Shown here: positions 1-19,912 of the stretch, piece after piece | Layout: each line of letters starts with the position of its first letter | Position numbering within the stretch: position 1 is the stretch's first letter | Source: a virus | Lineage: Duplodnaviria > Heunggongvirae > Uroviricota > Caudoviricetes | Reading direction: 5' to 3' (one strand) | Length of the DNA stretch: 19,912 nucleotides | IMG/VR virus record: IMGVR_UViG_2744054627_000004 | Made by a program: the position numbers and the translations under genes | Notes under the pieces: generated by a model | The model's input: only the letters and a program-made list of their open reading frames with translations | What the model was told of the DNA's origin: nothing | Databases searched by the model: none

Positions 1-31
1 TTTTCCTTGCCATAGACACCATCCCTGTCTT

Positions 32-58
32 CCCCCACATGATGTGGGGGGTTTTTTT
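32..58 (+). terminator. Rho-independent terminator-like hairpin in the host-side flank
   Basis: Perfect 9-bp inverted repeat CCCCCACAT (32-40) / ATGTGGGGG (42-50) followed by TTTTTTT (52-58). Confidence 0.55.
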
Positions 59-142
59 ATCAAATACTTACATGCAATCAAAAGTAAAACAGTTACTTAT
101 CGAAAGCTGTAAGGGTTTGGAGCGGTTTTAAAATTTCTTGAG

Positions 143-163
143 TGTGGACACTATGTGGACACT
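143..163. other. attL P'-arm: two direct TGTGGACACT repeats, putative Int arm-type binding sites
   Basis: Direct repeats at 143-152 and 154-163 (11-bp period), 14 nt beyond the int stop; contains the TGTGGACA motif that I recall as the P2 Int arm-site consensus. Confidence 0.5.
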
Positions 164-176
164 CAGAGGGGGAAAT

Positions 177-1157
177 TTATAACGTCACTCCGCCTTTTAG
201 TGGATTCAGAGCGACGGCATTTTGCAGATAGTCAGGCGCAAGGTGCGCATAGGCCATCGTCTGCTGAATGCTCGCATGTCCCAGAATCTGTTGCAGTGCG
301 ATTATATTGCCACCATTCATCATGAAATGGCTTGCGAATGTATGCCGCAGGATGTGGGTTGCCTGATTGGGTGGTATATCAGGTTTCACTCTGCGTAAAA
401 TCCCGCAAAATTTCTCATAATCAACTTTGAATAATTTGGCGCTGGCCTCCTCTTTAACTTTTTTCTCCAGTTCCTCAGAAATCGGCACGGTTCGCTTTTT
501 ACCGTTTTTGGTTTTCAGGAAGGTAACCCTGCAATTTGTAATCTGTGCTGGTTTTAGCGTGGCAACTTCCGTCCATCTTCCTCCAGTGCTCAGACATAAA
601 AGCGCGACAAGTAAGTCATCACCAGCCAAAACATTTAACAGTTTTTCGATTTCTGCTTTTTCCAGGAACGTCATTTCAGGGTTGGCCTCCGCCAGTGGCG
701 GCAGTCCGTGAATTGGGTGTTGCCCGGAAAATTCATCCAATTGAATTAATTTTGTGAACATGCCGGATAATCTGTACATGTCACGGTTTATCGTTGCGGC
801 ACTGATACCATCACGTAGTCGCATGGAACGATAATCCATCAAAGCCCTTTTACTCATCCTGCTCACTGGTATATCACCTATGCCGCTGATGGTTTTGAGT
901 AGATGATTAAACTCTTTTGTTCCATGATCGTGGTTTTGCCCGTGATATTTCCACCAGATGTCCAGCAACTCACTCAAAGTCCGGCGGTCTGCTCGCTGGC
1001 CTCCCCATTCTTTCTGACTGGCATTGGCGATTGTGTATCGCTCAAATGCTAGTGCTTCAGCTTTTCTTTCGAATTTCCTGCGGATGCGTTTTCCGTCGCG
1101 ACCGCGAGGTCTAATGTCCACTTCATAGCGACCATCATCGAGCTTCTTAATTGCCAT
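177..1157 (-). CDS. int: Tyrosine integrase, P2 Int-like
   Basis: Listed ORF 177..1187; likely true start is the Met of MAIKKLDDGRYEV at 1157, preceded by GGAGG. C-terminal catalytic region HILRHTFASHF ... LGHASIQQTMAYAHL is typical of tyrosine recombinases. Confidence 0.9.
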   Translation of the reverse strand: MAIKKLDDGRYEVDIRPRGRDGKRIRRKFERKAEALAFERYTIANASQKEWGGQRADRRTLSELLDIWWKYHGQNHDHGTKEFNHLLKTISGIGDIPVSRMSKRALMDYRSMRLRDGISAATINRDMYRLSGMFTKLIQLDEFSGQHPIHGLPPLAEANPEMTFLEKAEIEKLLNVLAGDDLLVALLCLSTGGRWTEVATLKPAQITNCRVTFLKTKNGKKRTVPISEELEKKVKEEASAKLFKVDYEKFCGILRRVKPDIPPNQATHILRHTFASHFMMNGGNIIALQQILGHASIQQTMAYAHLAPDYLQNAVALNPLKGGVTL

Positions 1158-1226
1158 AAGAAAGCCCTCCGGCGCTGTATTCACCATCTTGGTAGCAAAT
1201 GGTGAAAATGTAATCTTTATATAGAG

Positions 1227-1519
1227 TTAGCCAATCCTTTTCGCGGAGTGGTTGGACTCTGTTGACTCTGGCCCAATGTGCGCGAGAGCCGGTGCGATTT
1301 GTCCTGCGTCCGGCGCGGTTTTATCTGTCATAAGCCATAGAGCATATTTTTGGAATGTGGGATGCATAGTGATTTTTAGCAAAGCTGTGCCACCGGGTTC
1401 AAAGTTTCCTCCTTCATATTTTTAAGTGTGCTTAGCGGTAACTCTATGATTTCACAGAATTTTGATTGGCTTAGCCCTTCAGCCTCACGCAAGGCCTTAA
1501 TCTTTTCGCTTAATTTCAT
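1227..1519 (-). CDS. C: Immunity repressor C (P2 C-like), interrupted by an apparent 1-nt frameshift
   Basis: Manual translation: ATG at 1519 gives MKLSEKIKALREAEGLSQSKFCEIIELPLSTLKNMKEETLNPVAQLC, stop at 1375-1377. The shifted frame continues ...KYALWLMTDKTAPDAGQIAPALAHIGPESTESNHSAKRIG to a stop at 1227-1229. Span is 293 nt, one short of a multiple of 3. Divergent from cox as in P2. Confidence 0.7.
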
Positions 1520-1640: not shown

Positions 1641-1928
1641 ATGAGGGTACCATATATGGACGCTGAAAATTATGTGATTCAGTATCCGCTTGATGCGGTT
1701 CATGTGGATAAATTTGCTGATTTATTAGGGAAGCCAAAGACAGCCGTCAGTGAAATGGTGAAGGCAAATAAATTACCAATTATTGAATTGCGTGATCCTT
1801 GCAAACCGAAGGCTCGTGCCGGTGAAAAATGGGTTTTCATTCCTGAGTTTAATCGCGCTGTACGTGAGGCGTTTTATAACCGACCGGTTGAACAGCGTGA
1901 TGCATGGCTTTTGTGGATGGGGTTGTGA
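1641..1928 (+). CDS. cox: Cox-like excisionase / early-switch regulator
   Basis: 95-aa ORF with P2 Cox-like features (...KLPIIELRDP...RAGEKWVFIPEFN...RDAWLLWMGL). Alternative start at 1656 (MDAENY) has a better GAGGG RBS. Stop at 1926-1928. Confidence 0.8.
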   Translation: MRVPYMDAENYVIQYPLDAVHVDKFADLLGKPKTAVSEMVKANKLPIIELRDPCKPKARAGEKWVFIPEFNRAVREAFYNRPVEQRDAWLLWMGL

Positions 1929-1930
1929 TT

Positions 1931-2101
1931 ATGAATGAGCCGCGTTGTATTGCTCAGTTATTGCGTAACGAAAGCCCCAGGGCGATTGACTTCACCATCA
2001 CCCACGGTAAGGGGCGTAAGGGAATCATTATCCGCACCAAAAAACAGAGTCCGTTAAAGAAGGCTCTGACCTTTCTGAAAAGCCGGAGGGTCTGGAAATG
2101 A
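1931..2101 (+). CDS. Small early hypothetical protein (position of P2 orf78)
   Basis: ATG at 1931 right after the cox stop; 56 aa (MNEPRCIAQLLRNESPRAIDF...); the listed ORF 1904..2101 is in the same frame. Confidence 0.5.
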   Translation: MNEPRCIAQLLRNESPRAIDFTITHGKGRKGIIIRTKKQSPLKKALTFLKSRRVWK

Positions 2102-2596
2102 CAGTGATGACGCTCAATCTCGTCGAAAAACAGCCAGCAGCTATGCGCCGGATAATTGGTAAGCATCTTGCCGTCCCTCGTTGGCAGGATACATGTGATT
2201 ATTATAATCAGATGATGGAGCGCGAACGGCTAACAGTTTGCTTTCATGCGCAGTTAAAACAACGTCACGCAACGATGCGTTTTGAAGAAATGAACGACGT
2301 CGAACGTGAACGGCTGGTTTGTGCAATTGATGAATTGCGTGGGGCATTCTCAAAACGCCGTCAGGTTGGCGCAAGTGAGTATGCATATATTAGTTTTTAA
2401 CAGTCAGTCAGCGTCGTACTTTATTTATGCATGCCGGATTGACTGAAAAGAATTCAATCAGCCATACTGGCGAATTAATGAAGAGTCATGTTACTGGCGT
2501 GATGCTTTATTCCGTGCATTACGTGAACTATTCAGTCTGTTTGAGTATGCACCGACAATTCTGACGTCGGTAAAACCAGAGCAATATTTGCATTAA
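2098..2596 (+). CDS. B: Replication gene B-like protein, two apparent homopolymer frameshifts
   Basis: ATGA-coupled start at 2098. The 100-aa ORF ends at 2400 inside a T5 run (2394-2398); the reading continues in other frames (MHAGLTEK then EFNQPYWRINEESCYWRDALFRALRELFSLFEYAPTILTSVKPEQYLH) to a stop at 2594-2596. Total about 166 aa, matching P2 B in size and position. Confidence 0.6.
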
Positions 2597-2657
2597 ATAA
2601 TTAACCAGAGTTTTTAACGCACTTAATCGTGCGGGCTTCTTTTGCCTGGAGAAAGTC

Positions 2658-2882
2658 ATGCATACAGTTTCTGAAAATCAGTGCGGTAAATACGCATTAC
2701 TGCTGCAACAGGCCAGAACCGAAGCACAGGCCGACGCTGCGACGCGCTTTTCTTCTCATCTTGACGCCATGATTCGCCATATCACAAAGGCGGAGTTATC
2801 CCGCGTGGAGATAGTCGAGCTGCTCAGTCAGGAGTCGGAAAAATTTCACAATATCGGATTGTCTCGCGGGGAGGTGCTTTGA
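2658..2882 (+). CDS. Hypothetical early protein (position of P2 orf80)
   Basis: 74-aa ORF with RBS GGAGAAAGTC upstream of the ATG. Confidence 0.6.
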
Positions 2883-3181
2883 TGTCCTGTTCTCATTCAG
2901 TTGTATTACTGAATAACGCCTTAAAAATCGCCGTTATGAAAAATGGCGATTTGTCTCTTATTCAACTTTGTCTTGATAAAGAAAAACGCGACATCACTGA
3001 ATCTGTTATCGCGATTTATCAGAATGAATTAAACCTCCTGTCTGATGTGGTCAATTTACTTGTTAAACGCGCTGTATTCCACAAGCAAATTTCCTCAGTG
3101 GATGAACTGACAAAATTAACGACAGAACTTGCCAGTTATTGCGCTGATGTATCCAGGAAACTTAACGATAAAAGGAGCTGA
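2879..3181 (+). CDS. Hypothetical early protein (position of P2 orf81)
   Basis: 100-aa ORF, ATGA overlap with the preceding ORF. Confidence 0.6.
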
Positions 3182-3183
3182 TA

Positions 3184-3408
3184 ATGCCGGACAACGTAGA
3201 TTTTATTCAGGAACAACAGGCTGAATTACTGGAGCGCCAGATTAACGCGGCAAGGGTAAAACATTGCGGTGCTTCTGCGCTGGTTTGCGAAGAGTGTGAC
3301 GCGCCAATACCTGCTGCCCGTCGTGCGGCTTATCCGTCAGCCACGCGTTGTGTTTCCTGTCAGTCAGTCTTTGAAGCAAAAAACAAACATTACCGGAGAA
3401 CGGCATGA
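3184..3408 (+). CDS. TraR/DksA-family C4 zinc-finger protein (position of P2 orf82)
   Basis: 74-aa ORF with AGGAG RBS; paired Cys motifs CEECD ... CVSCQ. Confidence 0.75.
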   Translation: MPDNVDFIQEQQAELLERQINAARVKHCGASALVCEECDAPIPAARRAAYPSATRCVSCQSVFEAKNKHYRRTA

Positions 3409-3679
3409 GTATTCGTATTGAAATTGGCGAACGTTATGTCGTTACCAGTGACAGCTTCCAGTTTATTCTCCACGAGAAAAGAGAGCGGAAAGCGGTAAAA
3501 ACGCCGGTCAGGAATGGCTGGCGGTGGTTGGTTATTACCCGAAATTAAGCCAGCTCGTTTCCGGCCTGATGCATCACGATATTCTGACCGGAAGCGCAAA
3601 GTCTTTTGCTGATTTAAACGCGCAGGTTGAGCAACTCAGCAAGCGTTGTTCAGAGGCTTTTGGCTCATATGGCCGTTAA
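3405..3679 (+). CDS. Hypothetical protein (position of P2 orf83), apparent A-run frameshift
   Basis: ATGA-coupled start at 3405 (MSIRIEIGERYVVTSDSFQFILHEKRERKAVK...). The frame breaks at the A5 run in GTAAAAACG and continues QEWLAVVGYYPKLSQLVSGLMHHDILTGSAKSFADLNAQVEQLSKRCSEAFGSYGR to a stop at 3677-3679. Confidence 0.55.
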
Positions 3680-5934
3680 AGCCTCCGGGCGTTTTGTCCC
3701 TCCGTCAGCATTTGCTGCAGGCACCGGTAAGGCGTTTACCGGTGCTTATGCATGGAACGCGCCACGCGAGGCTGTCGGGCGCGAAAGACCCCTTACACGT
3801 GACGAGATGCGTCAGGTGCAAGGTGTTTTATCCACGATTAACCGCCTGCCTTACTTTTTGCGCTCGCTGTTTACGTCACGCTATGACTACATCCGGCGCA
3901 ATAAAAGCCCGGTGCACGGGTTTTATTTCCTCACATCCACTTTTCAGCGTCGTTTATGGCCGCGCATTGAGCGTGTGAATCAGCGCCATGAAATGAACAC
4001 CGACGCGTCGATGCTGTTTCTGGCTGAGCGTGACCACTATGCGCGCCTGCCGGGAATGAATGACAAGGAGCTGAAAAAGTTTGCTGCCCGTATCTCATCG
4101 CAGCTTTTCATGATGTATGAGGAACTCAGCGATGCCTGGGTGGATGCGCATGGCGAAAAAGAATCGCTGTTTACGGATGAGGCGCAGGCTCACCTCTATG
4201 GTCATGTTGCTGGCGCTGCACGTGCTTTCAATATTTCCCCTCTCTACTGGAAAAATACCGTAAAGGACAGATGACCACGAGGCAGGCATATTCTGCCATT
4301 GCCCGTCTGTTTAACGATGAGTGGTGGATTAGTCAGCTTAAAGGCCAGCGTATGCGCTGGCATGAGGCGTTACTGATTGCTGTCGGGGAGGTCAATAAAG
4401 ACCGTTCTCCTTATGCCAGTAAACATGCCATTCGTGATGTGCGTGCACGCCGCCAGGCAAATCTGGAATTTCTTAAATCGTGTGATCTCGAAAACAGGGA
4501 AACAGGCGAGCGCATCGACCTTATCAGTAAGGTGATGGGCAGTATTTCTAATCCTGAAATTCGCCGGATGGAGCTGATGAACACCATTGCCGGTATTGAG
4601 CGTTACGCCGCCGCAGAAGGTGATGTGGGGATGTTTATCACGCTGACCGCGCCGTCAAAGTATCACCCGACACGTCAGGTTGGAAAAGGCGAAAGTAAAA
4701 CCGTCCAGCTAAATCACGGCTGGAACGATGAGGCATTTAATCCAAAGGATGCGCAGCGTTATCTCTGCCGTATCTGGAGCCTGATGCGCACGGCATTCAA
4801 GGATAATGATTTACAGGTCTACGGTTTGCGAGTCGTCGAGCCACACCACGACGGAACGCCGCACTGGCATATGATGCTTTTTTGTAATCCACGCCAGCGT
4901 AACCAGATTATCGAAATCATGCGTCGCTACGCGCTCAAAGAGGATGGCGACGAAAGAGGAGCTGCGCGAAACCGTTTTCAGGCAAAACATCTTAATCGGG
5001 GCGGTGCTGCGGGGTATATCGCGAAATACATCTCAAAAATATCGACGGCTATGCACTGGATGGGCAGCTCGATAACGATACCGGCAGACCGCTGAAAGAC
5101 ACTGCAGCGGCTGTTACCGCATGGGCGTCAACGTGGCGTATCCCGCAATTTAAAACGGTTGGTCTGCCGACAATGGGGGCTTACCGTGAACTACGCAAAT
5201 TGCCTCGCGGCGTCAGCATTGCTGATGAGTTTGACGAGCGCGTCGAGGCTGCACGCGCCGCTGCAGACAGTGGTGATTTTGCGTTGTATATCAGCGCGCA
5301 GGGCGGGGCAAATGTCCCGCGCGATTGTCAGACTGTCAGGGTCGCCCGTAGCCCGTCGGATGACGTTAACGAGTACGAGGAAGAAGTCGAGAGAGTGGTC
5401 GGCATTTACGCGCCGCATCTCGGCGCGCGTCATATTCATATCACCAGAACCACGGACTGGCGCATTGTGCCGAAAGTGCCGGTCATTGAGCCTTTGACTT
5501 TAAAAAGCGGCATCGCCGCGCCTCGGAGTCCTGTCAATAACTGTGGAAAGCTTACCGACGGTGATACTTCGTTACCGGCTCCCACACCTTCTGAGCACGC
5601 CGCAGCAGTGCTTAATCTGGTTGATGACGGTGTTATCGAATGGAATGAGCCAGAGGTCGTGAGGGCGCTCAGAGGTGCATTAAAACACGAACTGAGAACA
5701 CCAAATCGTCAGCAGAGAAACGGAAGCCCGTTAAAACCACATGAAATAGCGCCATCGGCCAGACTGACCCGGTCGGAACGAACGCAAATTACCCGTATCC
5801 GCGTTGACCTTGCTCAGAACGGTATCAGGCCGCAGCGATGGGAGCTTGAGGCGCTGGCGCGTGGGGCAACAGTAAATTATGACGGGAAAAAATTCACGTA
5901 TCCGGTCACTGATGAGTGGCCGGGATTCATATAA
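3669..5934 (+). CDS. A: Replication initiation endonuclease A (rolling-circle HUH nickase), two apparent A-run frameshifts
   Basis: Three listed ORFs (3627..4274, 4271..5095, 5173..5934) in three frames join into one protein of about 755 aa. HUH motif PHWHMMLF and tyrosine pair YIAKYISK are present. Breaks are at A5 runs 4251-4255 and 5047-5051. Likely start is MAVKASGRF at 3669. Confidence 0.88.
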
Positions 5935-6212
5935 ACTGAAATGAACAGCGTTGCAAGTGTGATAAAAATCATTATACTGTTTTTATATACAGCACCTTGA
6001 TCTGGAAAGATGCTATAAATGTATATTTCTATAAAAATATATGGTTTATTGATTGTGTATGCTCACTATCAAATTTATACTCCGCGCGCAATGTTGAGTA
6101 TGCTTAAGATATAGCGTTTACAATTCCAGGCTTGAAGGCTCGGGTATAGGTAAAAATTGAGTGTTCTCGGTTGCTTTTCGTGACATAAGAGGACAGCAAA
6201 GGAGGTTGAGTA

Positions 6213-6682
6213 TGTACAGCCCATTGAACATCGCGAATAAGTTTATAGAACTTGCTTGCGCGGCTGGTATGCCAATCACCCAGATGCAGGCACAAAAGCT
6301 GACCTATATAGCACATGGTATAAATCTGGGTTACAAAGGGACGCCTTTGTTAACGACACCAGTTTGTGCATGGCGTTATGGTCCAGTGGTTCCAGTTCTG
6401 TATAACCATCTTAAAGTTTATGGCCGTAGTCCCATAACACAACCAATACAAGTTCCATCGGCAATTTCTCAGGAGTTTGACCCTATGACTGAGCAGTTGC
6501 TGCAGAACGTTTATAACGTTTACGGTAAATATACCGCTGAGGATTTATCTGCTTTCACACATCGTGAAGGTACTCCTTGGAAGCAAGCAATGGATAGTCG
6601 TATGGATATCATTCCTGATTCCGTTATTCAGGATTACTATCAAAAGCTGCTACACGGCGATAGCAATTGCATCGGACTATGA
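6213..6682 (+). CDS. Panacea-domain (DUF4065 / GepA / PanA-like) protein, putative antitoxin-type component
   Basis: 156-aa ORF with strong RBS AAGGAGG 6 nt upstream of the ATG at 6213 (listed ORF starts earlier, at 6161, in the same frame). Signature KLTYIAHG...AWRYGPVVPVLY...YG...THREGTPW resembles what I recall of DUF4065; not checked by HMM. Confidence 0.6.
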
Positions 6683-6722: not shown

Positions 6723-7106
6723 ATGCCTGACGATAATAAGAAAGTGACAGCTGAATTTGATAAAGACCTTCTCAGACGATTGCAGCAAGCTGAGCAGAAT
6801 CTGATAACTGCCTCTGCGGCTTTGGGAGATGAGGGCTGTTGGGATGAAGAATCTCATGAGCCTGAGTCTGTTGAGGACGCTGTTGATGAAATGCAAAAGG
6901 AAGAAGAGGATGCTGCGACCATGCAGCGTTTGGATTTATCCAGTCTTAATTTTCAAATTGCTGAATTGAGTCGCTGTGTTGAAACTATAAGCACTAACCT
7001 TGAAAGCGTACAGGCAGAAACCAAAAGAAAAATGCGGAAACCGACGGCCTGCTTACGGACAATGAGCTCCGTAGAACTATGGCTGATAAAACATATCAAT
7101 TCATGA
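6723..7106 (+). CDS. Acidic, coiled-coil-like hypothetical protein (127 aa as read)
   Basis: Listed ORF; very D/E-rich central segment (DEGCWDEESHEPESVEDAVDEMQKEEEDAATMQ). The 3' end may be frameshifted into the downstream TM ORF at the A5 run 7029-7033. Confidence 0.5.
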   Translation: MPDDNKKVTAEFDKDLLRRLQQAEQNLITASAALGDEGCWDEESHEPESVEDAVDEMQKEEEDAATMQRLDLSSLNFQIAELSRCVETISTNLESVQAETKRKMRKPTACLRTMSSVELWLIKHINS

Positions 7107-7165
7107 TTGTTTGGTGTTGTTTTGTCGGCTGGGTCATATTTATGTATGTATTGAAAAAGATTTGA
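7103..7165 (+). CDS. Tiny hydrophobic single-TM peptide (20 aa; 28 aa if started at ATG 7079)
   Basis: Manual translation MIVWCCFVGWVIFMYVLKKI; ATGA overlap with the stop of the 127-aa ORF; not in the ORF track because under 60 aa. Confidence 0.35.
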   Translation: MIVWCCFVGWVIFMYVLKKI

Positions 7166-7193
7166 TCCACCAGAAACAATTATCATTGCGCTT

Positions 7194-7292
7194 ATGGGAA
7201 CCACAACTGTGAGTATTGTGGGATTGGTTGGGTTTGTTGTTAGTGGTTTGTTCAAAAGCAACAATAAACCTTCTGGCGACAATAAAAATTAA
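7194..7292 (+). CDS. Tiny hydrophobic single-TM peptide (32 aa)
   Basis: Manual translation MGTTTVSIVGLVGFVVSGLFKSNNKPSGDNKN. The same frame is open upstream (KRFDPPETIIIAL...), so it may be the second TM helix of one frameshifted two-TM protein. Confidence 0.3.
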   Translation: MGTTTVSIVGLVGFVVSGLFKSNNKPSGDNKN

Positions 7293-7300
7293 TCATCAAA

Positions 7301-7327
7301 GTGGCACCTTTGGGTGCTATTTTTTTG
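7301..7327 (+). terminator. Intrinsic terminator closing the cargo module
   Basis: Stem GGCACC (7303-7308) / GGTGCT (7313-7318), loop TTTG, followed by ATTTTTTT. Confidence 0.6.
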
Positions 7328-7477
7328 CTTTTTCCGCGATTTCACTGTTTTTTCCGTGCATCATGTGATGCATGAGTTTGAATGTGCTTTAGTCGAGCTC
7401 ACTTGCTTTCTGCTGCCAATGCTAGCTAGGTTTGACGGTGTTCATGCAACTGCATTAAACCGACCATGAAGCGGGCG

Positions 7478-7494
7478 GGCGAGGCGGAAAGCAC
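7478..7494. other. cos: cos site (cohesive-end sequence) of the P2-like phage
   Basis: GGCGAGGCGGAAAGCAC matches my recollection of the P2 19-nt cohesive end GGCGAGGCGGGGAAAGCAC except for a shorter G run; it sits between the cargo and Q as in P2 prophages. Confidence 0.65.
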
Positions 7495-7662
7495 TGCGCG
7501 CTGGCGGTGGTGCTGATTTTATTTTTTCGGCGTCTCAGCGCGTCGTGATGGCGTTTAGATTGTGTGCCGGGGCGTCGGTGTGTCTGCGGGCTGTTTTGCG
7601 TGGAGGTGAGCGTGTGAGGGCGTGATGACGGGGTGTAAAAAGCCGCCCGCAGGCGGCGATGT

Positions 7663-11543: not shown

Positions 11544-12616
11544 ATGCGCCAGGAAACCCGCTTTAAATTTAATGCCTACCTGTCCCGTGTTGCCGAACTG
11601 AACGGCATCGACGCCGGTGATGTGTCGAAAAAATTCACCGTTGAACCGTCGGTCACCCAGACCCTGATGAACACCATGCAGGAGTCCTCTGACTTTCTGA
11701 CCCGCATCAACATTGTGCCGGTCAGCGAAATGAAAGGGGAAAAAATTGGTATTGGTGTCACCGGCTCCATCGCCAGCACCACCGACACCGCCGGTGGCAC
11801 CGAGCGTCAGCCGAAGGACTTCTCGAAGCTGGCGTCAAACAAGTACGAATGCGACCAGATTAACTTCGATTTTTATATCCGCTACAAAACGCTGGACCTG
11901 TGGGCGCGTTATCAGGATTTCCAGCTCCGTATCCGTAACGCCATTATCAAACGCCAGTCCCTTGATTTCATCATGGCCGGTTTTAACGGTGTGAAGCGTG
12001 CCGAAACCTCTGACCGCAACAGTAATCCGATGTTGCAGGATGTGGCGGTCGGCTGGCTGCAGAAATACCGCAATGAAGCCCGGCGCGCGTGATGAGCAAG
12101 GTCACTGACGAGGAAGGCCATACCACCTCTGAGGTTATCCGCGTGGGTAAGGGCGGTGATTATGCCAGCCTCGATGCACTGGTGATGGATGCGACCAACA
12201 ACCTGATTGAGCCGTGGTATCAGGAAGACCCTGACCTTGTGGTGATTGTGGGACGTCAGCTACTGGCGGACAAGTATTTCCCCATCGTTAACAAGGAGCA
12301 GGATAACAGCGAAATGCTGGCCGCTGACGTCATCATCAGCCAGAAACGCATCGGTAACCTGCCGGCGGTGCGCGTCCCGTACTTCCCGGCAGATGCGATG
12401 CTCATCACGAAGCTGGAAAACCTGTCCGTCTACTACATGGATGACAGCCATCGCCGCGTGATTGAGGAAAACCCGAAACTCGACCGCGTGGAGAACTACG
12501 AGTCAATGAACATTGATTACGTGGTGGAAGACTACGCCGCCGGTTGTCTGGTGGAAAAAATCAAGGTCGGTGATTTCTCCACACCGGCTAAGGCGACCGC
12601 AGAGCCGGGAGCGTAA
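11544..12616 (+). CDS. N: Major capsid protein N, one apparent frameshift
   Basis: ORFs 11544..12092 and 12089..12616 join to about 357 aa; break at the C3 run 12079-12081. Confidence 0.88.
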
Positions 12617-12619: not shown

Positions 12620-13407
12620 ATGACGAGTCCCGCACAGCGCCACATGATGCGGGTCTCGGCAGCGATGACCGCGCAGCGGGAAGCCGCCCCGCTGCGACAT
12701 GCAACTGTCTATGAGCAGATGCTGGTTAAGCTCGCCGCAGACCAGCGCACACTGAAAGCGATTTATTCAAAAGAGCTTAAGGCCGCGAAAAGCGCGAACT
12801 GCTGCCGTTCTGGTTGCCGTGGGTGAACGGTGTGCTGGAGCAGGGCAAAGGTGCACAGGATGACATTCTGATGACGGTCATGCTGTGGCGTCTGGATACC
12901 GGCGATATTGCCGGTGCGCTGGAGATTGCCCGTTATGCCCTGAAGTACGGTCTGACCATGCCGGGTAAACACCGCCGTACCCGCCGTACATGTTCACCGA
13001 GGAGGTGGCGCTTGCGGCCATGCGCGCTCACGCTGCCGGTGAATCCGTGGATACCCGCCTGCTGACGGAGACCCTTGAACTGACCGCCACGGCAGACATG
13101 CCTGATGAAGTGCGCGCAAAGCTGCACAAATTACCGGTCTGTTTCTGCGTGACGCTGGTGATGCTGCAGGGGCACTGGCGCACCTGCAACGTGCGACACA
13201 GCTCGACTGTCAGGCAGGCGTCAAAAAGAGATTGAACGACTGGAGCGGGAGCTGAAACCGAAGCCGGAGCCGCAGCCCAAAGCAGCGACCCGCGCCCCGC
13301 GTAAGACCCGGAGCGTGACACCGGCAAAACGTGGACGCCCGAAAAAAGAAAAGCCAGTTAACAACCCCCGAATGCGCCCCGCGCCAGGGCGGCACGCCGG
13401 TCAGTGA
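12620..13407 (+). CDS. M: Terminase small (endonuclease) subunit M, multiple apparent frameshifts; 3' end uncertain
   Basis: Fragments 12620..12826, 12814..13065 and 12990..13235 plus a further frame ending at 13405-13407; N-terminus MTSPAQRHMMRVSAAMTAQREA. Confidence 0.75.
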
Positions 13408-13463: not shown

Positions 13464-13970
13464 ATGATGACGCTGATTATTCCGCGAAAGGAGGCTCCCG
13501 TGTCCGGTGAGGGTACGGTGGTCATCCCGCAACCGGCAGGCGATGAGCCGGTGATTAAAACACGTTCTTTTTCCCGATATCGACCCGAAGCGCGTCCGGG
13601 AACGTATGCGCCTTGAGCAGACCGTCGCCCCCGCCCGTCTGCGTGAGGCCATCAAGTCAGGCATGGCGGAAACAAATGCGGAGCTGTACGAGTACCGCGA
13701 ACAGAAAATTGCCGCCGGTTTTACGCGTCTGGCGGACGTTCCGGCGGACGACATCGACGGTGAAAGTATCAAAGTTTTTACTACGAGCGCGCCGTGTGTG
13801 CGATGGCGACCGCGTCGCTTTATGAGCGTTATCGCGGCGTGGATGCCAGTGCGAAAGGCGACAAGAAGGCTGACAGCATTGACAGCACCATTGATGAACT
13901 GTGGCGGGATATGCGCTGGGCGGTGGCGCGTATCCAGGACAAGCCGCGCTGCATCGTGAGTCAAATCTGA
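13464..13970 (+). CDS. L: Head completion/stabilisation protein L, apparent frameshifts
   Basis: Start MMTLIIPRKEAPVSGEG at 13464 with a GAGG RBS; continues in ORF 13606..13959 (MRLEQTVAPARLREAIKSG...) and a third frame ending ...RCIVSQI at 13968-13970. Confidence 0.8.
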
Positions 13971-14173
13971 TGAAGACCTTTGCGCTACAGGGCGACACGC
14001 TCGACGCCATTTGTGTCCGGTATTACGGGCGCACTGAGGGCGTGGTTGAGACCGTGCTCGCCGCAAATCCGGGACTGGCTGAACTGGGTGCGGTGCTGCC
14101 ACACGGCACCGCCGTCGAACTGCCCGACGTTCAGACCGCGCCCGTGGCTGAAACTGTCAATCTGTGGGAGTAA
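13970..14173 (+). CDS. X: Tail protein X
   Basis: MKTFALQGDTLDAICVRYYGRTEGVVETVLAANPGLAEL... (67 aa); the ATG overlaps the L stop; stop at 14171-14173. Confidence 0.85.
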   Translation: MKTFALQGDTLDAICVRYYGRTEGVVETVLAANPGLAELGAVLPHGTAVELPDVQTAPVAETVNLWE

Positions 14174-14176: not shown

Positions 14177-14457
14177 ATGACAGCAGAAGAAAAAGCGTCC
14201 TGTCGCTTTTCATGATTGGGGTGCTGATTGTTGTCGGCAAGGTGCTTGCCGGTGGTGAACCCATCACCCCGCGTCTGTTTATCGGGCGCATGTTGCTCGG
14301 TGGTTTTGTCTCGATGGTTGCCGGTGTTGTTCTGGTGCAGTTTCCTGACCTGTCACTGCCTGCGGTGTGCGGTATCGGCTCCATGCTGGGTATCGCCGGT
14401 TATCAGGTGATTGAGATTGCCATTCAGCGCCGTTTTAAGGGCAGGGGGAAACAGTAA
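14177..14457 (+). CDS. Y: Holin Y, apparent A-run frameshift near the 5' end
   Basis: ATG at 14177 (MTAEEK...); break in the A5 run 14190-14194; continues as listed ORF 14164..14457 (SVLSLFMIGVLIVVGKVLAGG...), a multi-TM protein. Confidence 0.85.
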
Positions 14458-14952
14458 TGCCGGTAATTAACACGCATCAGAATATCGCGGCCTTTCTCGA
14501 CATGCTGGCCGTGTCAGAAGGGACGGCGAATCATCCGCTGACGAAAAACCGGGGCTATGACGTGATAGTCACCGGACTGGACGGGAAGCCGGAAATTTTC
14601 ACTGACTACAGTGACCACCCGTTTGCGCATGGCCGACCGGCGAAGGTGTTTAATCGTCGCGGTGAAAAATCCACGGCCTCCGGTCGCTATCAGCAGCTTT
14701 ACCTGTTCTGGCCGCACTATCGCAAACAGCTTGCCCTGCCGGATTTCAGTCCGTTGTCACAGGACAGACTCGCCATTCAGTTGATCCGCGAACGCGGTGC
14801 ACTGGATGACATCCGGGCGGGACGCATTGAGCGCGCCATTTCACGCTGTCGCAATATCTGGCGTCCCTGCCGGGTGCCGGTTACGGTCAGCGTGAGCATT
14901 CACTGGAAAACTGGTCACCGTCTGGCGTACCGCTGGCGGCGTACCGGCTTAA
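14457..14952 (+). CDS. K: Endolysin K, two apparent frameshifts in the 3' part
   Basis: MPVINTHQNIAAFLDMLAVSEGTANHPL...; the listed 253-aa ORF is an artefactual read-through. Reconstructed C-terminus ...KLVTVWRTAGGVPA ends at 14950-14952. Confidence 0.85.
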
Positions 14953-14966: not shown

Positions 14967-15451
14967 ATGAAGAAATTATCCCTTTCACTGATGCTGAACG
15001 TGTCGCTGGCGCTGATGCTGGCACTGTCCCTGATTTACCCGCAGAGCGTGGCTGTCAATTTTGTCGCCGCCTGGGCGATTCTGGCGACGGTTATCTGTGT
15101 GGTTGCCGGTGGTGTCGGGGTGTATGCCACTGAGTATGTGCTGGAACGCTACGGGCGGGAACTGCCGCCGGAATCGCTGGCCGTGAAGATTGTCACGTCG
15201 CTGTTTTGCAGCCGGTGACGTGGTGCAGGCGGGCGGTGGGTCTGGTGGTGATGGTGGTGACGTTTATCTCGCTGGTCGCTGCCGGGTGGATTTTTACCGC
15301 GCTGATTTATCTTGTGGCGTCGCTGTTTTTCCGGCTGATACGTAAAGCCTGTCGTCAGCGTCTTGAGGGCGGGAACCATGTCAAAGCTGATGATTGTGCT
15401 GGTCGTGTTGTTATCGCTGGCGGTGACAGGTCTGTTTCTGGCGAAGCATGA
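14967..15451 (+). CDS. lysA: Lysis accessory membrane protein LysA, apparent T-run frameshift; 3' end uncertain
   Basis: ATG at 14967 with a GGAG RBS; MKKLSLSLMLNVSLALMLALSLIYPQ... (multi-TM); continues in ORF 15206..15451 after a break near 15195-15205. Confidence 0.75.
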
Positions 15452-15802
15452 AAACGCCAGCCTGCGCGCCTCGCTGGACAGGGCGAACAACGTCGCCAGC
15501 GGTCAGCAGACGACCATCACCATGCTGAAAATCAGCTTCATGTTGCCATCACCAGGGCAGACAAAAACGAGCTGGCGCAGGTGGCACTGCGTCAGGAGCT
15601 GGAGAACGCCGCGAAGCGTGAAGCACAGCGCGAGAAAACCATCACGAGGTTACTTAATGAAAACGAAGATTTTCGCCGCTGGTACGGTGCTGACCTGCCT
15701 GATGCTGTGCGCCGGTTGCACCAGCGCCCGGCCTGCGCCGACGCCAGTGATTGTCCACAACGCCTGCCCGAAAGTGAGCCTTTGCCCGATGCCGGGCAGT
15801 GA
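15378..15802 (+). CDS. lysB: Rz-like spanin LysB, one apparent A-run frameshift
   Basis: MSKLMIVLVVLLSLAVTGLFLAKHENASLRASLD... (N-terminal TM); break at the A4 run near 15525-15530; continues ...ALRQELENAAKREAQREKTITRLLNENEDFRRWYGADLPDA to a stop at 15800-15802. Confidence 0.8.
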
Positions 15803-15947
15803 CCCGGAGACGAACGGCGATTTAAGTGCCGATATCCGGCAGCTTGAGAACGCGCTGGCACGCTGTGCCAGCCAGGTAAAAATGATTAAACACTGTCAGG
15901 AAGAAAACGATGCTCAAACCCGACAGCCTGCGCAGGGCGCTGACTGA
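15657..15947 (+). CDS. lysC: Rz1-like outer-membrane lipoprotein LysC, embedded in and overlapping the 3' end of lysB
   Basis: MKTKIFAAGTVLTCLMLCAGCTSARPAP...: signal peptide with lipobox LCAGC, Pro-rich mature part. Confidence 0.75.
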   Translation: MKTKIFAAGTVLTCLMLCAGCTSARPAPTPVIVHNACPKVSLCPMPGSDPETNGDLSADIRQLENALARCASQVKMIKHCQEENDAQTRQPAQGAD

Positions 15948-16376
15948 TGCCGTCACGGTGCTGAAAACTAACCCCGATATGCTGCGGATATTCGTGGATA
16001 ACGGGAGTATTGCCTCCACACTGGCGGCGTCGTTGTCATTCGAAAAGCGTTACACGCTCAATGTCATTGTGACCGACTTTACCGGTGATTTTGACCTGCT
16101 CATCGTGCCGGTGCTGGCGTGGCTGCGGGAAATCAGCCCGACATCATGACCACCGACGAAGGCCAGAAAAAGGGCTTCACGTTTTATGCGGACATCAACA
16201 ATGACAGCAGCTTTGATATCAGTATCAGCCTGATGCTGACCGAACGCACGCTGGTCAGTGAGGTGGGCGGCGCGCTGCATGTGAAGAATATCCCGGAACC
16301 CCCGCCGCCGGAGCCGGTCACCCGCCCGATGGAGCTTTATATCAATGGCGAACTGGTGAGTAAGTGGGATGAATGA
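15910..16376 (+). CDS. R: Tail completion protein R, one apparent frameshift
   Basis: ORFs 15910..16149 and 16119..16376 join to about 155 aa; break at GGGAAATC near 16128. Confidence 0.85.
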
Positions 16377-16818
16377 GTTTAAGCGTTTTGAAGACCGGCT
16401 GACCGGGCTGATTGAATCGCTGTCACCGTCAGGGCGTCGGCGACTGAGCGCCGAACTGGCGAAACGTCTGCGTCAGAGTCAGCAGCGTCGGGTGATGGCA
16501 CAGAAAGCCCCGGACGGCACCCCCTACGCGCCACGTAAGCAGCAGAGCGCCAGAAAAAGACCGGTCGCGTTAAGCGAAAATGTTTGCGAAACTTATCACC
16601 AGTCGTTTTTGCATATCCGCGCCAGCCCTGAACAGGCAGCAATGGAGTTTTACGGCGGGAAGTCACCGAAAATCGCCAGTGTGCATCAGTTCGGTCTGTC
16701 GGAAGAAACCCGGAAAGACGGTAAGAAAATTGATTATCCGGCGCGTCCTCTGCTCGGCTTTACCGGTGAGGATGTGCAGATGATTGAAGAGATTATTCTG
16801 GCTCACCTCGACCGTTAG
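16369..16818 (+). CDS. S: Tail completion protein S
   Basis: 149-aa ORF overlapping the R stop (ATGAATGA). Confidence 0.85.
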   Translation: MNEFKRFEDRLTGLIESLSPSGRRRLSAELAKRLRQSQQRRVMAQKAPDGTPYAPRKQQSARKRPVALSENVCETYHQSFLHIRASPEQAAMEFYGGKSPKIASVHQFGLSEETRKDGKKIDYPARPLLGFTGEDVQMIEEIILAHLDR

Positions 16819-16884
16819 TTGTGCCATTCCTGACACCTCATCGTCACATTGCCGCCGGTATGACCCGGCGGCATCCTTCCCGTT

Positions 16885-17550
16885 ATGAACACTCTCGCAA
16901 ATATTCAGGAACTCGCGCGCGCACTGCGCAACATGATCCGCACCGGCATTATCGTCGAAACCGACCTTAACGCCGGTCGCTGCCGTGTGCAGACCGGCGG
17001 CATGTGCACTGACTGGCTGCAGTGGCTGACCCATCGCGCCGGGCGTTCGCGCACATGGTGGGCACCTTCCGTGGGGGAACAGGTGCTGATTCTGTCCGTG
17101 GGCGGTGAACTCGACACGGCGTTTGTTCTGCCGGGGATTTATTCCGGCGATAATCCCGCGCCGTCTGCGTCGGCGGATGCCCTGCATATCCGTTTCCCTG
17201 ACGGGGCGGTGATTGAGTATGAACCCGAAACCAGTGCACTTACGGTAAGCGGAATTAAAACGGCCAGCGTGACGGCTTCTGATTCTGTTACTGCCACGGT
17301 GCCGGTGGTCATGGTGAAAGCATCAACCCGCGTCACCCTGGACACACCGGAGGTGGTCTGCACCAACAGGCTGATTACCGGCACGCTGGAAGTGCAGAAG
17401 GGCGGGACGATGCGCGGCAACATTGAACACACCGGCGGTGAACTCTCATCAAACGGTAAGGTACTGCATACCCATAAACACCCCGGCGACAGTGGCGGCA
17501 CAACAGGGGACCTCTATGACAGCGCGTTATCTCGGAATGAATCGCAGTGA
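16885..17550 (+). CDS. V: Baseplate assembly / spike protein V; probable frameshift near the 3' end
   Basis: 221-aa ORF as read; an alternative frame stops at 17517-19, overlapping the W ATG. Confidence 0.85.
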   Translation: MNTLANIQELARALRNMIRTGIIVETDLNAGRCRVQTGGMCTDWLQWLTHRAGRSRTWWAPSVGEQVLILSVGGELDTAFVLPGIYSGDNPAPSASADALHIRFPDGAVIEYEPETSALTVSGIKTASVTASDSVTATVPVVMVKASTRVTLDTPEVVCTNRLITGTLEVQKGGTMRGNIEHTGGELSSNGKVLHTHKHPGDSGGTTGDLYDSALSRNESQ

Positions 17551-17863
17551 TGGCCTGACTGTCACTGACCTTGAGCATATCAGCCAGAGTATCGGCGATA
17601 TCCTGCGCACACCGGTCGGCTCACGGGTGATGCGTCGTGATTACGGCTCGTTGCTGGCGTCAATGATTGACCAGCCGCAGACCCCGGCGCTTGAGTTGCA
17701 GATTAAAGTCGCCTGTTACATGGCAGTGCTGAAATGGGAACCCCGCGTCACCCTGTCATCCGTCACCACGGCGCGCAGTTTTGACGGGCGAATGACGGTC
17801 ACGTTAACCGGCCAGCACAACGACACCGGCCAGCCACTTTCGTTAACCATCCCTGTGAGGTGA
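17516..17863 (+). CDS. W: Baseplate wedge protein W (GPW/gp25-like)
   Basis: MTARYLGMNRSDGLTVTDLEHISQSIGDILRTPVGSRVMRRDYGS... (115 aa); the listed ORF 17423..17863 starts upstream in the same frame. Confidence 0.85.
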   Translation: MTARYLGMNRSDGLTVTDLEHISQSIGDILRTPVGSRVMRRDYGSLLASMIDQPQTPALELQIKVACYMAVLKWEPRVTLSSVTTARSFDGRMTVTLTGQHNDTGQPLSLTIPVR

Positions 17864-17867
17864 AATC

Positions 17868-18775
17868 ATGCCGATTATCGACCTGAACCAGCTACCCGCA
17901 CCGGATGTGGTCGAGGAGCTGGACTTTGAAACCATTCTCGCCGAACGCAAGGCGACACTGATTTCCCTTTACCCGGAAGACCAGCAGGAGGCGGTCGCCC
18001 GTACCCTGACGCTGGAATCTGAGCCTCTCGTCAAACTGCTGGAGGAAAATGCTTATCGTGAGCTTATCTGGCGTCAGCGTGTGAATGAGGCCGCACGGGC
18101 GGTAATGCTGGCCTGTGCCGCCGGTAATGACCTTGATGTGATTGGTGCCAATTACAACACCACGCGCCTGACTATCACTCCGGCAGATGATTCGACCCTC
18201 CCGCCGACACCGGCAGTGATGGAGTCTGACACCGATTATCGTCTGCGTATTCAGCAGGCTTTTGAGGGCTTAAGCGTCGCCGGGTCAGTGGGAGCTTATC
18301 AGTATCATGGTCGCAGTGCCGACGGGCGTGTCGCCGATATTTCTGTCACCAGTCCGTCTCCTGCCTGCGTCACCATCTCTGTGCTGTCACGTGAAAATAA
18401 CGGTGTCGCATCCGAAGACCTGCTGGCCGTGGTGCGTAACGCCCTGAATGGCGAGGACGTCAGACCGGTGGCCGACCGCGTGACCGTGCAGTCTGCCGCC
18501 ATTGTTGAATACCAGATAAACGCCACGCTTTACCTTTACCCTGGTCCCGAAAGCGAACCCATCCGCGCGGCCGCCGTGAAAAACTGGAAGCATACATCAC
18601 GGCACAGCACCGGCTGGGGCGCGACATCCGTCTGTCTGCCATTTATGCCGCTTTGCATGTGGAAGGTGTGCAGCGTGTCGAACTGGCTGCACCGCTGGCC
18701 GACATCGTGCTCAACAATACGCAGGCGTCTTTCTGTACCGAATACCGCGTCGTGACCGGAGGCTCGGATGAGTGA
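17868..18775 (+). CDS. J: Baseplate protein J, one apparent A-run frameshift
   Basis: Listed ORF 17868..18755; break at the A5 run near 18580 (GTGAAAAACTGG); the shifted frame continues ...ITAQHRLGRDIRLSAIYAALHVEGVQRVELAAPLADIVLNNTQASFCTEYRVVTGGSDE to a stop at 18773-18775. Confidence 0.85.
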
Positions 18776-19300
18776 TTCGCGACTGCTGCCGACCGGCTCA
18801 TCACCGCTTGAAGTTGCCGCCGCAAAAGCCTGTACGGAAATTGAAAAACACCGGTCAGTATTCGTGAGCTGTGGAACCCGGACACCTGCCCGGCAAATCT
18901 GCTGCCGTGGCTGGCGTGGGCGTTTTCGGTCGACAGGTGGGATGAAAAGTGGCCGGAAGCGACAAAACGCGCCGTTATCCGCGATGCCTATTTCATCCAC
19001 TGTCATAAAGGCACTATCGGCGCAATCCGGCGTGTGGTGGAGCCGCTAGGCTATCTCATCAACGTGACGGAGTGGTGGGAAAACAGTGACCCGCCCGGCA
19101 CTTTCCGGCTTGATATTGGTGTACTGGAAAGCGGTATCACAGAGGCAATGTATCAGGAAATGGAACGGCTGATTGCTGATGCCAAACCTGCAAGCCGCCA
19201 CCTTATTGGCCTGAACATTACCCGGGACATTCCCGGCTACCTGTTCGCCGGTGGTGTGGCTTATGACGGCGATGTAATTACGGTTTACCCGGATAAGTGA
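18768..19300 (+). CDS. I: Baseplate protein I, apparent frameshifts
   Basis: ORFs 18768..19049 and 19034..19300 in different frames; N-terminus MSDSRLLPTGSSPLEVAAAKACTEIEK; C-terminus ...ITRDIPGYLFAGGVAYDGDVITVYPDK. Confidence 0.8.
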
Positions 19301-19306
19301 GGAATA

Positions 19307-19912
19307 ATGAGCACAAAATTCAGAACCGTTATCACCACTGCCGGTGCAGCAAAGCTGGCAGCGGCAACCGCGCCGGGAGGGCGGAAGGTCAACATTACCA
19401 CGATGGCCGTCGGGGATGGCGGTGGTAAATTGCCTGTCCCGGATGCCGGACAGACCGGGCTTATCCATGAAGTCTGGCGACATGCGCTGAACAAAATCAG
19501 CCAGGACAAACGAAACAGTAATTATATTATCGCAGAGCTGGTTATTCCGCCGGAGGTGGGCGGTTTCTGGATGCGTGAGCTTGGCCTGTACGATGATGTG
19601 GGAACATTAATTGCCGTGGCGAACATGGCCGAAAGTTATAAGCCAGCTCTTGCCGAAGGCTCAGGGCGTTCGCAGACCTGTCGCATGGTCATCATCGTCA
19701 GCAGTGTGACCTCAGTGGAGCTGACCATTGACACCACAACGGTGATGGCGACGCAGGATTACGTTGATGACAAAATTGCAGAACATGAACAGTCACGACG
19801 TCACCCGGACGCCTCGCTGACCGCAAAAGGTTTTACTCAGTTAAGCAGTGCGACCAACAGCACGTCTGAAACACTGGCCTGCAACGCCGAAAGCGGTTAA
19901 GGCCGCAACTGA
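19307..19912 (+). CDS. H: Tail fibre protein H, N-terminal part; continues beyond the window
   Basis: GAGG RBS then MSTKFRTVITTAGAAKLAAATAPGG... The stop at 19898-19900 is probably a frameshift artefact, since tail-fibre genes in this family are about 2 kb. Confidence 0.8.

What the first reader, a model, noticed from the sequence alone, without database searches (positions are those of the whole stretch)
1..19912. Pervasive single-base frameshifts in homopolymer runs across essential phage genes
More than 25 P2 core genes here (C, B, orf83-like, A, Q, P, O, N, M, L, Y, K, lysA, lysB, R, V, J, I, probably H) cannot be translated in one frame. Almost every break I traced sits in a short homopolymer that is one base too short: A5 at 4251-4255 and 5047-5051 in A, A5 at 14190-14194 in Y, T5 at 2394-2398 in B, C3 at 12079-12081 in N, A4 at 11394-11397 in O, A4 at 9760-9763 in P. 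That is the signature of homopolymer under-calling in the assembly, not the random decay expected of a degenerating prophage, so the phage may well be intact and inducible. It also means any ORF call in this window, including the cargo genes, needs care.
Basis: partly seen in the sequence, partly recalled or inferred. Interest (0 to 1): 0.6.

Follow-up and report, generated by a model that had tools for sequence, protein, structure and literature searches.

The report
Sequencing-error frameshifts in P2-like prophage
The dozens of broken phage genes in this contig are almost certainly base-calling errors that shorten runs of identical letters, not real mutations, so the underlying P2-like prophage is probably intact and the finding matters only as a data-quality warning.

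Summary
The window is one whole draft contig (LSBR01000234.1, assembly GCA_001641855.1). It holds the left two-thirds of a P2-like prophage inserted just downstream of cpxP.

I count 53 indel events, and 21 of 31 genes are affected.

An intact relative (L032, GCA_019369645.1) aligns to window 1-16648 with only 3 mismatches but 48 indel events. 46 of those events are deletions, and nearly all shorten a homopolymer.

The chance that a run is shortened rises steeply with run length:
- length 1: 0 of 9167
- length 4: 7%
- length 5: 22%
- length 6: 58%

Coding and non-coding DNA are hit at the same rate. None of the 48 events is shared by any of 154 related loci. A conserved host terminator is also miscalled: G6T7 here, and none of the 5424 matching complete E. 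coli genomes is identical over that stretch.

The ratio of indels to substitutions is incompatible even with a mismatch-repair-deficient mutation spectrum (P about 4e-36).

Verdict: homopolymer miscalling in a draft assembly, so this is not a biological feature.
- "more than 25 genes" is overstated
- one coordinate is off by 12 bases
- nothing here supports "inducible"

The parts
1..176 (.). Host DNA downstream of cpxP (terminator hairpin) plus attL. It has two run-length anomalies: G6T7 at about 46-58 (relatives have G5T8) and A4 at 86-89 (relatives have A5).
   Evidence: Bases 1-61 match 5424 of 5426 complete E. coli genomes, and none of them is identical.
177..1157 (-). Integrase, intact (326 aa).
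   Evidence: The exact protein is found in many assemblies.
1227..1519 (-). Repressor C, broken by T6->T5 at 1419-1423.
1656..2101 (+). cox and the orf78-like gene, both intact.
2098..2596 (+). B, broken by T6->T5 (2394-2398) and A5->A4 (2446-2449). Two more deletions lie in the following spacer: G4->G3 at about 2633-2635 and T5->T4 at 2640-2643.
2658..3408 (+). orf80 (DUF2732), orf81 (DUF5405) and orf82 (TraR-like), all intact.
3405..3679 (+). orf83-like gene (DUF5405), broken by A5->A4 at 3477-3480.
3669..5934 (+). Replication endonuclease A, broken by A6->A5 at 4251-4255 and A6->A5 at 5035-5039.
6212..6682 (+). Cargo gene 1, a SocA/Panacea-domain protein, intact.
6723..7292 (+). Cargo gene 2 (190 aa in relatives, weak DUF2975 match), broken by three -1 deletions at 7028, 7154 and 7161.
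7293..7662 (.). Non-coding spacer between the cargo genes and Q. It has five deletion events: 7348 (T7->T6), 7457 (A4->A3), 7464 (C3->C2), 7486 (G4->G2) and 7637 (A6->A5).
7663..8692 (-). Portal Q, with five -1 deletions at 7885, 7896, 7955, 8502 and 8621.
8692..10458 (-). Terminase large subunit P, with deletions at 9760, 9935, 10077, 10085 and 10388. The last one is A4C4->A3C3.
10632..11485 (+). Scaffold O, broken by A5->A4 at 11394-11397.
11544..12616 (+). Major capsid N, broken by C4->C3 at 12079-12081.
12620..13361 (+). Terminase small subunit M, with four -1 deletions (12788, 12980, 13128, 13223) and two +1 over-calls near its 3' end (A5->A6, A3->A4).
13342..13370 (.). Cluster of homopolymer over-calls: A5->A6, A3->A4 and C2->C5. 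None of the 24 relatives with this region has it.
13464..13970 (+). Head completion L, with three -1 deletions at 13557, 13568 and 13775.
13970..14173 (+). Tail protein X, intact. It has no runs of 4 or more.
14177..14457 (+). Holin Y, broken by A6->A5 at 14190-14194.
14457..14952 (+). Endolysin K, with deletions at 14860 (G3->G2) and 14907 (A5->A4).
14967..15947 (+). lysA (deletions at 15204 and 15367), lysB (deletion at 15528) and lysC (intact).
15910..16376 (+). Tail completion R, broken by A4->A3 at 16130.
16369..16818 (+). Tail completion S. Three -1 deletions (16554, 16577, 16606) fall within 52 bases and restore the frame. The ORF stays open (149 aa against 150), but the residues between the first and third deletion are read out of frame.
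16885..17550 (+). Baseplate V. G5->G4 at about 17506-17509 extends the ORF to 221 aa. It returns to 211 aa when one G is restored.
17516..17863 (+). Baseplate W, intact.
17868..18773 (+). Baseplate J, broken by A6->A5 at 18579-18583. It is 302 aa once corrected.
18768..19296 (+). Tail protein I, broken by A6->A5 at 18844-18848 and C4->C3 at about 19288. It is 176 aa once corrected.
19307..19912 (+). 5' part of tail fibre H, cut by the contig end. A +1 insertion at 19878-19880, 33 bases from the end, creates a stop. This is the only event that is not clearly in a homopolymer.

Best explanation
The frameshifts are errors in the deposited consensus sequence, not mutations in the bacterium's DNA.

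The contig comes from a fragmented draft assembly. Its base-caller or consensus step systematically under-counted runs of identical bases. The longer the run, the more often one base was dropped. In one short stretch it over-counted instead.

Each lost base shifts the reading frame, so 21 of 31 phage genes look broken. The real prophage is most likely identical, or nearly so, to the intact P2-like prophage found next to cpxP in other E. coli assemblies such as L032.

Shown here: the pattern, the statistics and the existence of an intact near-identical relative.

Inferred: that the cause is the sequencing chemistry or low coverage. A flow-based platform such as Ion Torrent or 454 fits best, but I could not establish the platform.
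For: 1. The window is one whole 19912-base contig of a draft assembly whose contig numbering reaches at least 234.
2. L032 has every gene intact. It differs from window 1-16648 by 3 mismatches against 48 indel events. Two of the 3 mismatches are themselves run-length shifts.
3. The fraction of runs shortened rises with run length: 0/9167 (length 1), 1/2297 (2), 2/566 (3), 12/175 (4), 15/68 (5), 15/26 (6) and 2/4 (7).
4. 46 deletion events against 2 insertion events (P = 8e-12).
5. Coding and non-coding runs of 4 or more are hit equally (Fisher P = 1.0). Per-gene counts fit the Poisson expectation from run content, so the spared genes are spared by chance.
6. None of the 48 window versions occurs in any of 154 related loci, while the L032 versions occur in a median of 51 of them.
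7. The window's 44-mer with two shortened runs has no hit in three public collections. The same stretch with both runs restored has at least 120 hits in IMG/VR alone.
8. Host DNA is affected too. The cpxP terminator reads G6T7, and none of 5424 matching complete E. coli genomes is identical over bases 1-61.
9. Restoring four single bases gives V, J and I their canonical lengths of 211, 302 and 176 aa.
10. The C2->C5, A5->A6 and A3->A4 cluster within about 25 bases is typical of a poor read, not of slippage.
11. There is a published precedent: about 240 under-called homopolymers produced false frameshifts in a finished genome, and Sanger sequencing showed them to be errors (PMC4687164).
Against: - No reads, quality values or coverage are available, and I found no paper or platform for LSBR01.
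- I could not examine other contigs of the same assembly. Evidence that host genes are equally affected rests on two run-length anomalies in 176 bases of host/attL DNA.
- The density of events is mildly uneven: 9 observed against 17.9 expected in the first 6 kb. I attribute this to coverage but cannot show it.
- A runs are hit about twice as often as T runs (25/114 against 12/105, P = 0.047), which I cannot explain.
Confidence: 0.95

Rival explanations
1. This is a genuinely decaying (cryptic) prophage. The indels are real mutations that accumulated after the phage lost function.
For: Many genes are interrupted. Prophage decay is common in E. coli (general knowledge).
Against: - Decay should leave substitutions, nonsense codons, larger deletions and IS insertions. 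Here gene order and content are complete, and there is one clean substitution against 48 indels relative to an intact relative.
- The indels sit almost only in homopolymers, and their rate depends on run length.
- No event is shared with any of 154 relatives.
- Host terminator DNA is affected as well.
Confidence: 0.01
2. These are real slippage mutations made in a mutator background (mismatch-repair deficient), which is known to raise indels in mononucleotide runs, and they were tolerated because prophage genes are dispensable.
For: In mismatch-repair-defective E. coli the indel rate depends on homopolymer length (PMC8510543). Length dependence alone therefore does not separate this from an artefact.
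Against: - Those experiments gave 30,061 base substitutions against 5,324 small indels, about 5.6 to 1. The window shows 48 indels against 3 mismatches, and P(at least 48 of 51) is about 4e-36 under that spectrum.
- The 46 to 2 deletion bias and the C2->C5 jump do not look like slippage.
- For more than half of all 6-base runs to be hit, the same process would have wrecked host genes across the genome.
Confidence: 0.02
3. This is biological recoding. The genes are expressed despite the frameshifts through programmed ribosomal frameshifting or transcriptional slippage at the runs.
For: P2-like phages do use one programmed frameshift, in the tail chaperone E/E' (general knowledge). That gene lies outside this window.
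Against: - The runs are only 3 to 6 bases long.
- All relatives encode the same proteins in a single frame.
- The same kind of event occurs in non-coding DNA at the same rate.
Confidence: 0.005

Closest known systems
Homopolymer under-calling errors in draft or long-read assemblies (for example the Clostridium autoethanogenum case, PMC4687164)
   Same: - Single-base deletions concentrated in runs of 4 or more.
- A strong bias towards under-calling.
- False frameshift and pseudogene annotations that disappear when compared with accurate sequence.
   Different: - The density here is much higher: about 2.9 events per kb, against about 240 in 4.35 Mb.
- There is also a small over-call cluster.
- The platform is unknown. 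The short contig and the complete absence of errors in runs of length 1 fit flow-based chemistry at low coverage better than early nanopore data (inference).
P2-like prophages (Peduovirus) integrated next to cpxP in E. coli, for example in strains CUVM3 and ETEC-2265 and in assembly GCA_019369645.1
   Same: - The same insertion site.
- The same gene order: int-C-cox-B-...-A-cargo-Q-P-O-N-M-L-X-Y-K-lysABC-R-S-V-W-J-I-H.
- 96-98% identity to many such prophages, and only 3 mismatches plus 53 gap positions over about 16.7 kb to L032.
   Different: Apart from the run-length errors, only one private substitution (7950). The contig lacks the right third of the prophage.
Mutation spectrum of mismatch-repair-deficient E. 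coli (mutation-accumulation experiments, PMC8510543)
   Same: Indels concentrate in mononucleotide runs, and their rate rises with run length.
   Different: - Substitutions outnumber indels about 5.6 to 1 there, while the window shows roughly the reverse by more than 15 to 1.
- The near-exclusive deletion bias here is not explained by that process.

Membership tests
Homopolymer miscalling artefact | Indels are confined to homopolymer runs. | tested here: met
   52 of 53 events change the length of a mononucleotide run. 44 of the 47 shortened runs are 4 bases or longer, although such runs hold only 7.4% of the bases (P = 2e-46).
Homopolymer miscalling artefact | The error probability rises with run length. 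| tested here: met
   0%, 0.04%, 0.35%, 6.9%, 22%, 58% and 50% for run lengths 1 to 7.
Homopolymer miscalling artefact | The differences are private to the record and absent from near-identical relatives. | tested here: met
   No window version occurs in any of 154 loci. L032 differs by 3 mismatches only. Exact-pattern scans give 0 hits against at least 120 for the restored version.
Homopolymer miscalling artefact | The events ignore function: the same rate in coding, non-coding, essential and accessory DNA. | tested here: met
   Fisher P = 1.0 for coding against non-coding. Per-gene counts fit the Poisson expectation.
Homopolymer miscalling artefact | The rest of the assembly, host genes included, is affected as well. 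| tested here: inconclusive
   Only 176 bases of host/attL DNA lie in the contig. They carry two anomalies, including G6T7 in the cpxP terminator, where none of 5424 matching genomes is identical. Other contigs could not be fetched.
Homopolymer miscalling artefact | Read-level support: low coverage or discordant reads at the sites, and a platform prone to homopolymer errors. | not testable with these tools
   No reads are available, and no paper or platform was found for LSBR01.
Degenerate (cryptic) prophage | Mixed lesions: substitutions including nonsense codons, larger deletions, insertions and gene loss. | tested here: not met
   The gene order is complete. There is one clean substitution, and no indel longer than 3 bases.
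Mismatch-repair-deficient mutation spectrum | Base substitutions outnumber small indels (about 5.6 to 1). | tested here: not met
   48 indels against 3 mismatches, P about 4e-36.
Programmed frameshift or slippage recoding | The shift site is conserved in relatives, which also need the shift. | tested here: not met
   All relatives encode each gene in one frame.
P2-like phage (Peduovirus) | P2 gene order and high nucleotide identity to recognised Peduovirus genomes. | tested here: met
   92% of the window is covered at 95-97.5% identity by Peduovirus records. Gene-by-gene synteny holds.

The most novel reading that the evidence does not exclude
The shortened runs really exist in the strain's DNA. 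That would mean a burst of near-exclusively -1 slippage events across a prophage and its flank with almost no accompanying substitutions. This implies an unknown, strongly deletion-biased, run-length-dependent mutational process, for example replication of this segment by a slippage-prone polymerase that escapes mismatch repair.
Probability: 0.01. Interest if true: 0.6.

Novelty: not a real feature. Interest (0 to 1): 0.08.

Why it matters
There is no new biology here. The value is practical.

- **Prophage status:** this prophage should not be scored as defective. Pseudogene or prophage-decay statistics that include this assembly would be inflated.
- **Database contamination:** the artefactual protein fragments are already in public protein collections. 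The 221-aa 'V', the 295-aa 'J' and the 149-aa 'S' were each retrieved by exact look-up from this contig only.
- **A hidden trap:** gpS shows that an ORF can remain open and still be wrong, because three errors cancel out. Checking ORF length alone would miss it.
- **Wider caution:** any gene call from GCA_001641855.1 should be treated with caution until the assembly is polished with accurate reads.

Tried and rejected
- **Locating the source by exact pattern.** Scans in genome contigs, viral contigs and metagenome contigs found nothing. The source was found instead through the unique frameshifted V and J products. Looking up the frameshifted O ORF from its upstream ATG failed.
- **Finding the platform.** Searches for a paper naming LSBR01 or GCA_001641855, and then for neighbouring accessions, gave nothing relevant. 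The platform remains unknown.
- **Finding a closer relative among complete genomes.** The best complete RefSeq E. coli genome is only about 98% identical over Q-M. The near-identical relative came from draft GenBank assemblies, reached through the integrase and Panacea proteins.
- **Extending the near-identical relative past gpS.** gpS in the window is itself altered, so its look-up returned only the source contig. gpX is too common. The last 3.3 kb was therefore judged against 14 more distant relatives and 154 loci.
- **Other contigs of the same assembly.** I considered fetching them to test host genes.
- **Selection sparing certain genes.** I considered this, for example for int (0 hits against 2.8 expected), and rejected it as not significant.
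- **The public phage record ON470601.1.** I suspected it of the same error type because N and M are split. The splits are caused by runs of N, not by homopolymers.


Full report
**What the window is.** The 19912-base window is an entire contig, LSBR01000234.1 of the NCBI draft assembly GCA_001641855.1. Two ORF products unique to the window, a 221-aa 'V' and a 295-aa 'J', were each found on that record only, and the contig length is exactly 19912.

The sequence is the left two-thirds of a P2-like (Peduovirus) prophage:
- 92% of it aligns at 95-97.5% identity to Peduovirus genomes.
- It aligns to prophages in 882 complete E. coli genomes over at least 80% of its length.
- In annotated relatives the prophage sits immediately downstream of cpxP. 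Window base 1 lies about 10 bases after the cpxP stop.
- The gene order is int, C, cox, orf78-like, B, orf80-83, A, two cargo genes, Q, P, O, N, M, L, X, Y, K, lysA/B/C, R, S, V, W, J, I and the start of H.

**Checking the observation.** The mechanical ORF list is visibly fragmented. Against an intact prophage from strain CUVM3 (L003) the window shows 416 substitutions and 52 indel events, nearly all single-base deletions in homopolymers.

The decisive comparison came from relatives that carry the identical integrase and cargo protein. Locus L032 (GCA_019369645.1, contig JAEOCO010000012.1) has every gene intact. It aligns to window 1-16648 with only 3 mismatches but 48 indel events: 44 of -1, two of -2, one +2 and one +3. 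Two of the three mismatches are themselves run-length shifts: G5T8 read as G6T7 at position 51, and part of A5GA3 read as A6GA4 near 13349.

In the last 3.3 kb, 14 more distant relatives and k-mer checks across 154 loci identify five more events:
- G5->G4 at about 17506
- A6->A5 at 18579
- A6->A5 at 18844
- C4->C3 at 19288
- a +1 at 19878-19880, 33 bases from the contig end

Restoring four single bases returns V, J and I to their canonical 211, 302 and 176 aa.

The second break in A is the A5 run at 5035-5039, not 5047-5051. The number of genes hit is 21 of 31, not more than 25. gpS and the 190-aa cargo gene were missed.

**Is it more than chance?** Using L032 as the truth, the fraction of runs shortened in the window by run length is:

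| Run length | Shortened / total | Percent |
|---|---|---|
| 1 | 0 / 9167 | 0% |
| 2 | 1 / 2297 | 0.04% |
| 3 | 2 / 566 | 0.35% |
| 4 | 12 / 175 | 6.9% |
| 5 | 15 / 68 | 22% |
| 6 | 15 / 26 | 58% |
| 7 | 2 / 4 | 50% |

- Runs of 4 or more hold 7.4% of the bases but 44 of the 47 shortened runs (P = 2e-46).
- Deletions outnumber insertions 46 to 2 (P = 8e-12).
- Coding and non-coding runs are hit equally (Fisher P = 1.0).
- The number of hits per gene matches a Poisson expectation computed from each gene's run content. Intact genes such as X (no runs of 4 or more) or Panacea (expected 0.24) are intact by chance. No gene is significantly spared; int has 0 against 2.8 expected, P = 0.06 uncorrected.

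**Real mutations or errors?** Four lines of evidence point to errors.

1. *The events are private.* None of the 48 window versions occurs in any of 154 related loci, while the L032 versions occur in a median of 51 of them. A 44-mer from P that spans two shortened runs has no exact match in the genome, viral or metagenome collections.

2. *The mutation spectrum is impossible for replication errors.* Even in mismatch-repair-defective E. coli, where run-length-dependent indels are most frequent, mutation-accumulation experiments gave 30,061 base substitutions against 5,324 small indels (PMC8510543). Under that ratio, seeing at least 48 indels among 51 differences has P about 4e-36.

3. *Host DNA is affected.* Bases 1-61 match 5424 of 5426 complete E. 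coli genomes, yet none is identical. L032 and the other relatives read G5T8 in the cpxP terminator where the window has G6T7.

4. *The over-call cluster looks like a poor read.* At 13342-13370 the window has A5->A6, A3->A4 and C2->C5 within about 25 bases. None of the 24 relatives with this region has it. This does not look like slippage.

A published precedent shows the same signature. Under-called homopolymers created about 240 false deletions in a finished Clostridium genome, and they were shown to be errors by Illumina and Sanger sequencing (PMC4687164).

**Most likely mechanism.** The consensus of a fragmented, probably low-coverage draft assembly under-counted homopolymers. Each lost base shifts the frame, which fragments 21 genes.

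- Shown: the pattern, the statistics and the existence of an intact near-identical relative.
- Inferred: the technical cause. I could not establish the platform, because no paper was found. Three things fit flow-based chemistry (Ion Torrent or 454) better than early nanopore data: no errors at all in runs of length 1, the short contig, and a contig number of at least 234. This is my inference, not a result.

Two minor points remain unexplained:
- The event density is lower than expected in the first 6 kb (9 against 17.9).
- A runs are hit about twice as often as T runs (P = 0.047).

**Rivals.**
- Genuine prophage decay is rejected. There are no larger deletions, insertions or gene losses, and only one clean substitution.
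- A mutator origin is rejected by the indel-to-substitution ratio and the deletion bias.
- Recoding by programmed frameshifting or transcriptional slippage is rejected. All relatives encode the proteins in one frame, and non-coding DNA is hit equally.

- The core interpretation, an assembly artefact rather than decay, is supported.
- 'May well be intact' is supported for the part present here. Once corrected, this part matches L032, in which all genes are intact. The contig ends in H, so completeness of the whole prophage is unknown.
- 'Inducible' has no support. The repressor is a 97-aa helix-turn-helix protein without a self-cleaving peptidase domain. By general knowledge, P2-type immunity is not SOS-inducible.

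**Novelty and score.** This is not a biological feature, so interest is low (0.08). Its practical value is as a quality flag for assembly GCA_001641855.1. It also shows that artefactual protein fragments from this contig already sit in public protein collections. That includes a gpS whose ORF stays open because three errors cancel out, while its internal residues are wrong.

Noticed in passing
window 16554-16606 (gpS, 16369-16818): Three -1 deletions within 52 bases add up to -3, so the ORF stays open (149 aa against 150 in relatives). The residues between the first and third deletion are read out of frame. Checking ORF length alone would not catch this. The altered protein is on record only from this contig.
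   Followed up: yes
window 13342-13370: This is the only place where runs are too long rather than too short: A5->A6, A3->A4 and C2->C5 within about 25 bases, at the end of M and in the M-L spacer. None of the 24 relatives with this region has it. It looks like a single poor read that dominated the consensus.
   Followed up: yes
window 46-58: The host cpxP terminator reads G6T7. Relatives such as L032 read G5T8, and none of the 5424 complete E. coli genomes that match bases 1-61 is identical. So the miscalling is not restricted to phage DNA.
   Followed up: yes
window 6212-7292: The cargo between A and Q is a SocA/Panacea-domain protein (156 aa, intact) followed by a 190-aa protein with a weak DUF2975 match (three deletions here). 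This may be a Panacea-type toxin-antitoxin or defence pair. Relatives carry quite different cargo at the same spot: GmrSD+HEPN+methylase in L005, a TIR-domain protein in L004, DUF4209 in L001, a reverse-transcriptase-like gene in L021, AAA ATPases in L020 and L027, HipA/HIRAN-like genes in L024 and L026, and DUF7380 in L025.
   Followed up: partly
between S and V: window 16819-16884; L002 17947-18732; L020, L023 and L025 12931-13716: Some relatives carry an extra 261-aa gene of unknown function on the opposite strand between S and V. The window and L003 lack it. This looks like a second variable cargo site in these prophages.
   Followed up: no
window 1-6000 against 6001-16648: Given the run content, deletions are fewer than expected in the first 6 kb (9 observed, 17.9 expected) and somewhat more frequent afterwards. 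This may reflect uneven read coverage, which I could not check.
   Followed up: partly
window 7950: This is the single clean substitution relative to L032 (A here, G there). It lies 5 bases from a deletion site, and its 15-mer is absent from all 154 relatives. It may be another local consensus error.
   Followed up: partly
L001 (ON470601.1, phage vB_EcoM-569R9) about 9700-14300: This public phage record annotates N and M as split genes and Q as shortened. The cause is runs of N (assembly gaps), not homopolymer errors.
   Followed up: yes
window 19878-19912 (contig end): The contig stops in the conserved 5' part of tail-fibre gene H, just after a +1 insertion that creates a stop. Relatives diverge strongly in the rest of H, and some have an invertase next to the fibre genes (L019, L021, L024). 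That variability may be why the assembly broke here.
   Followed up: no
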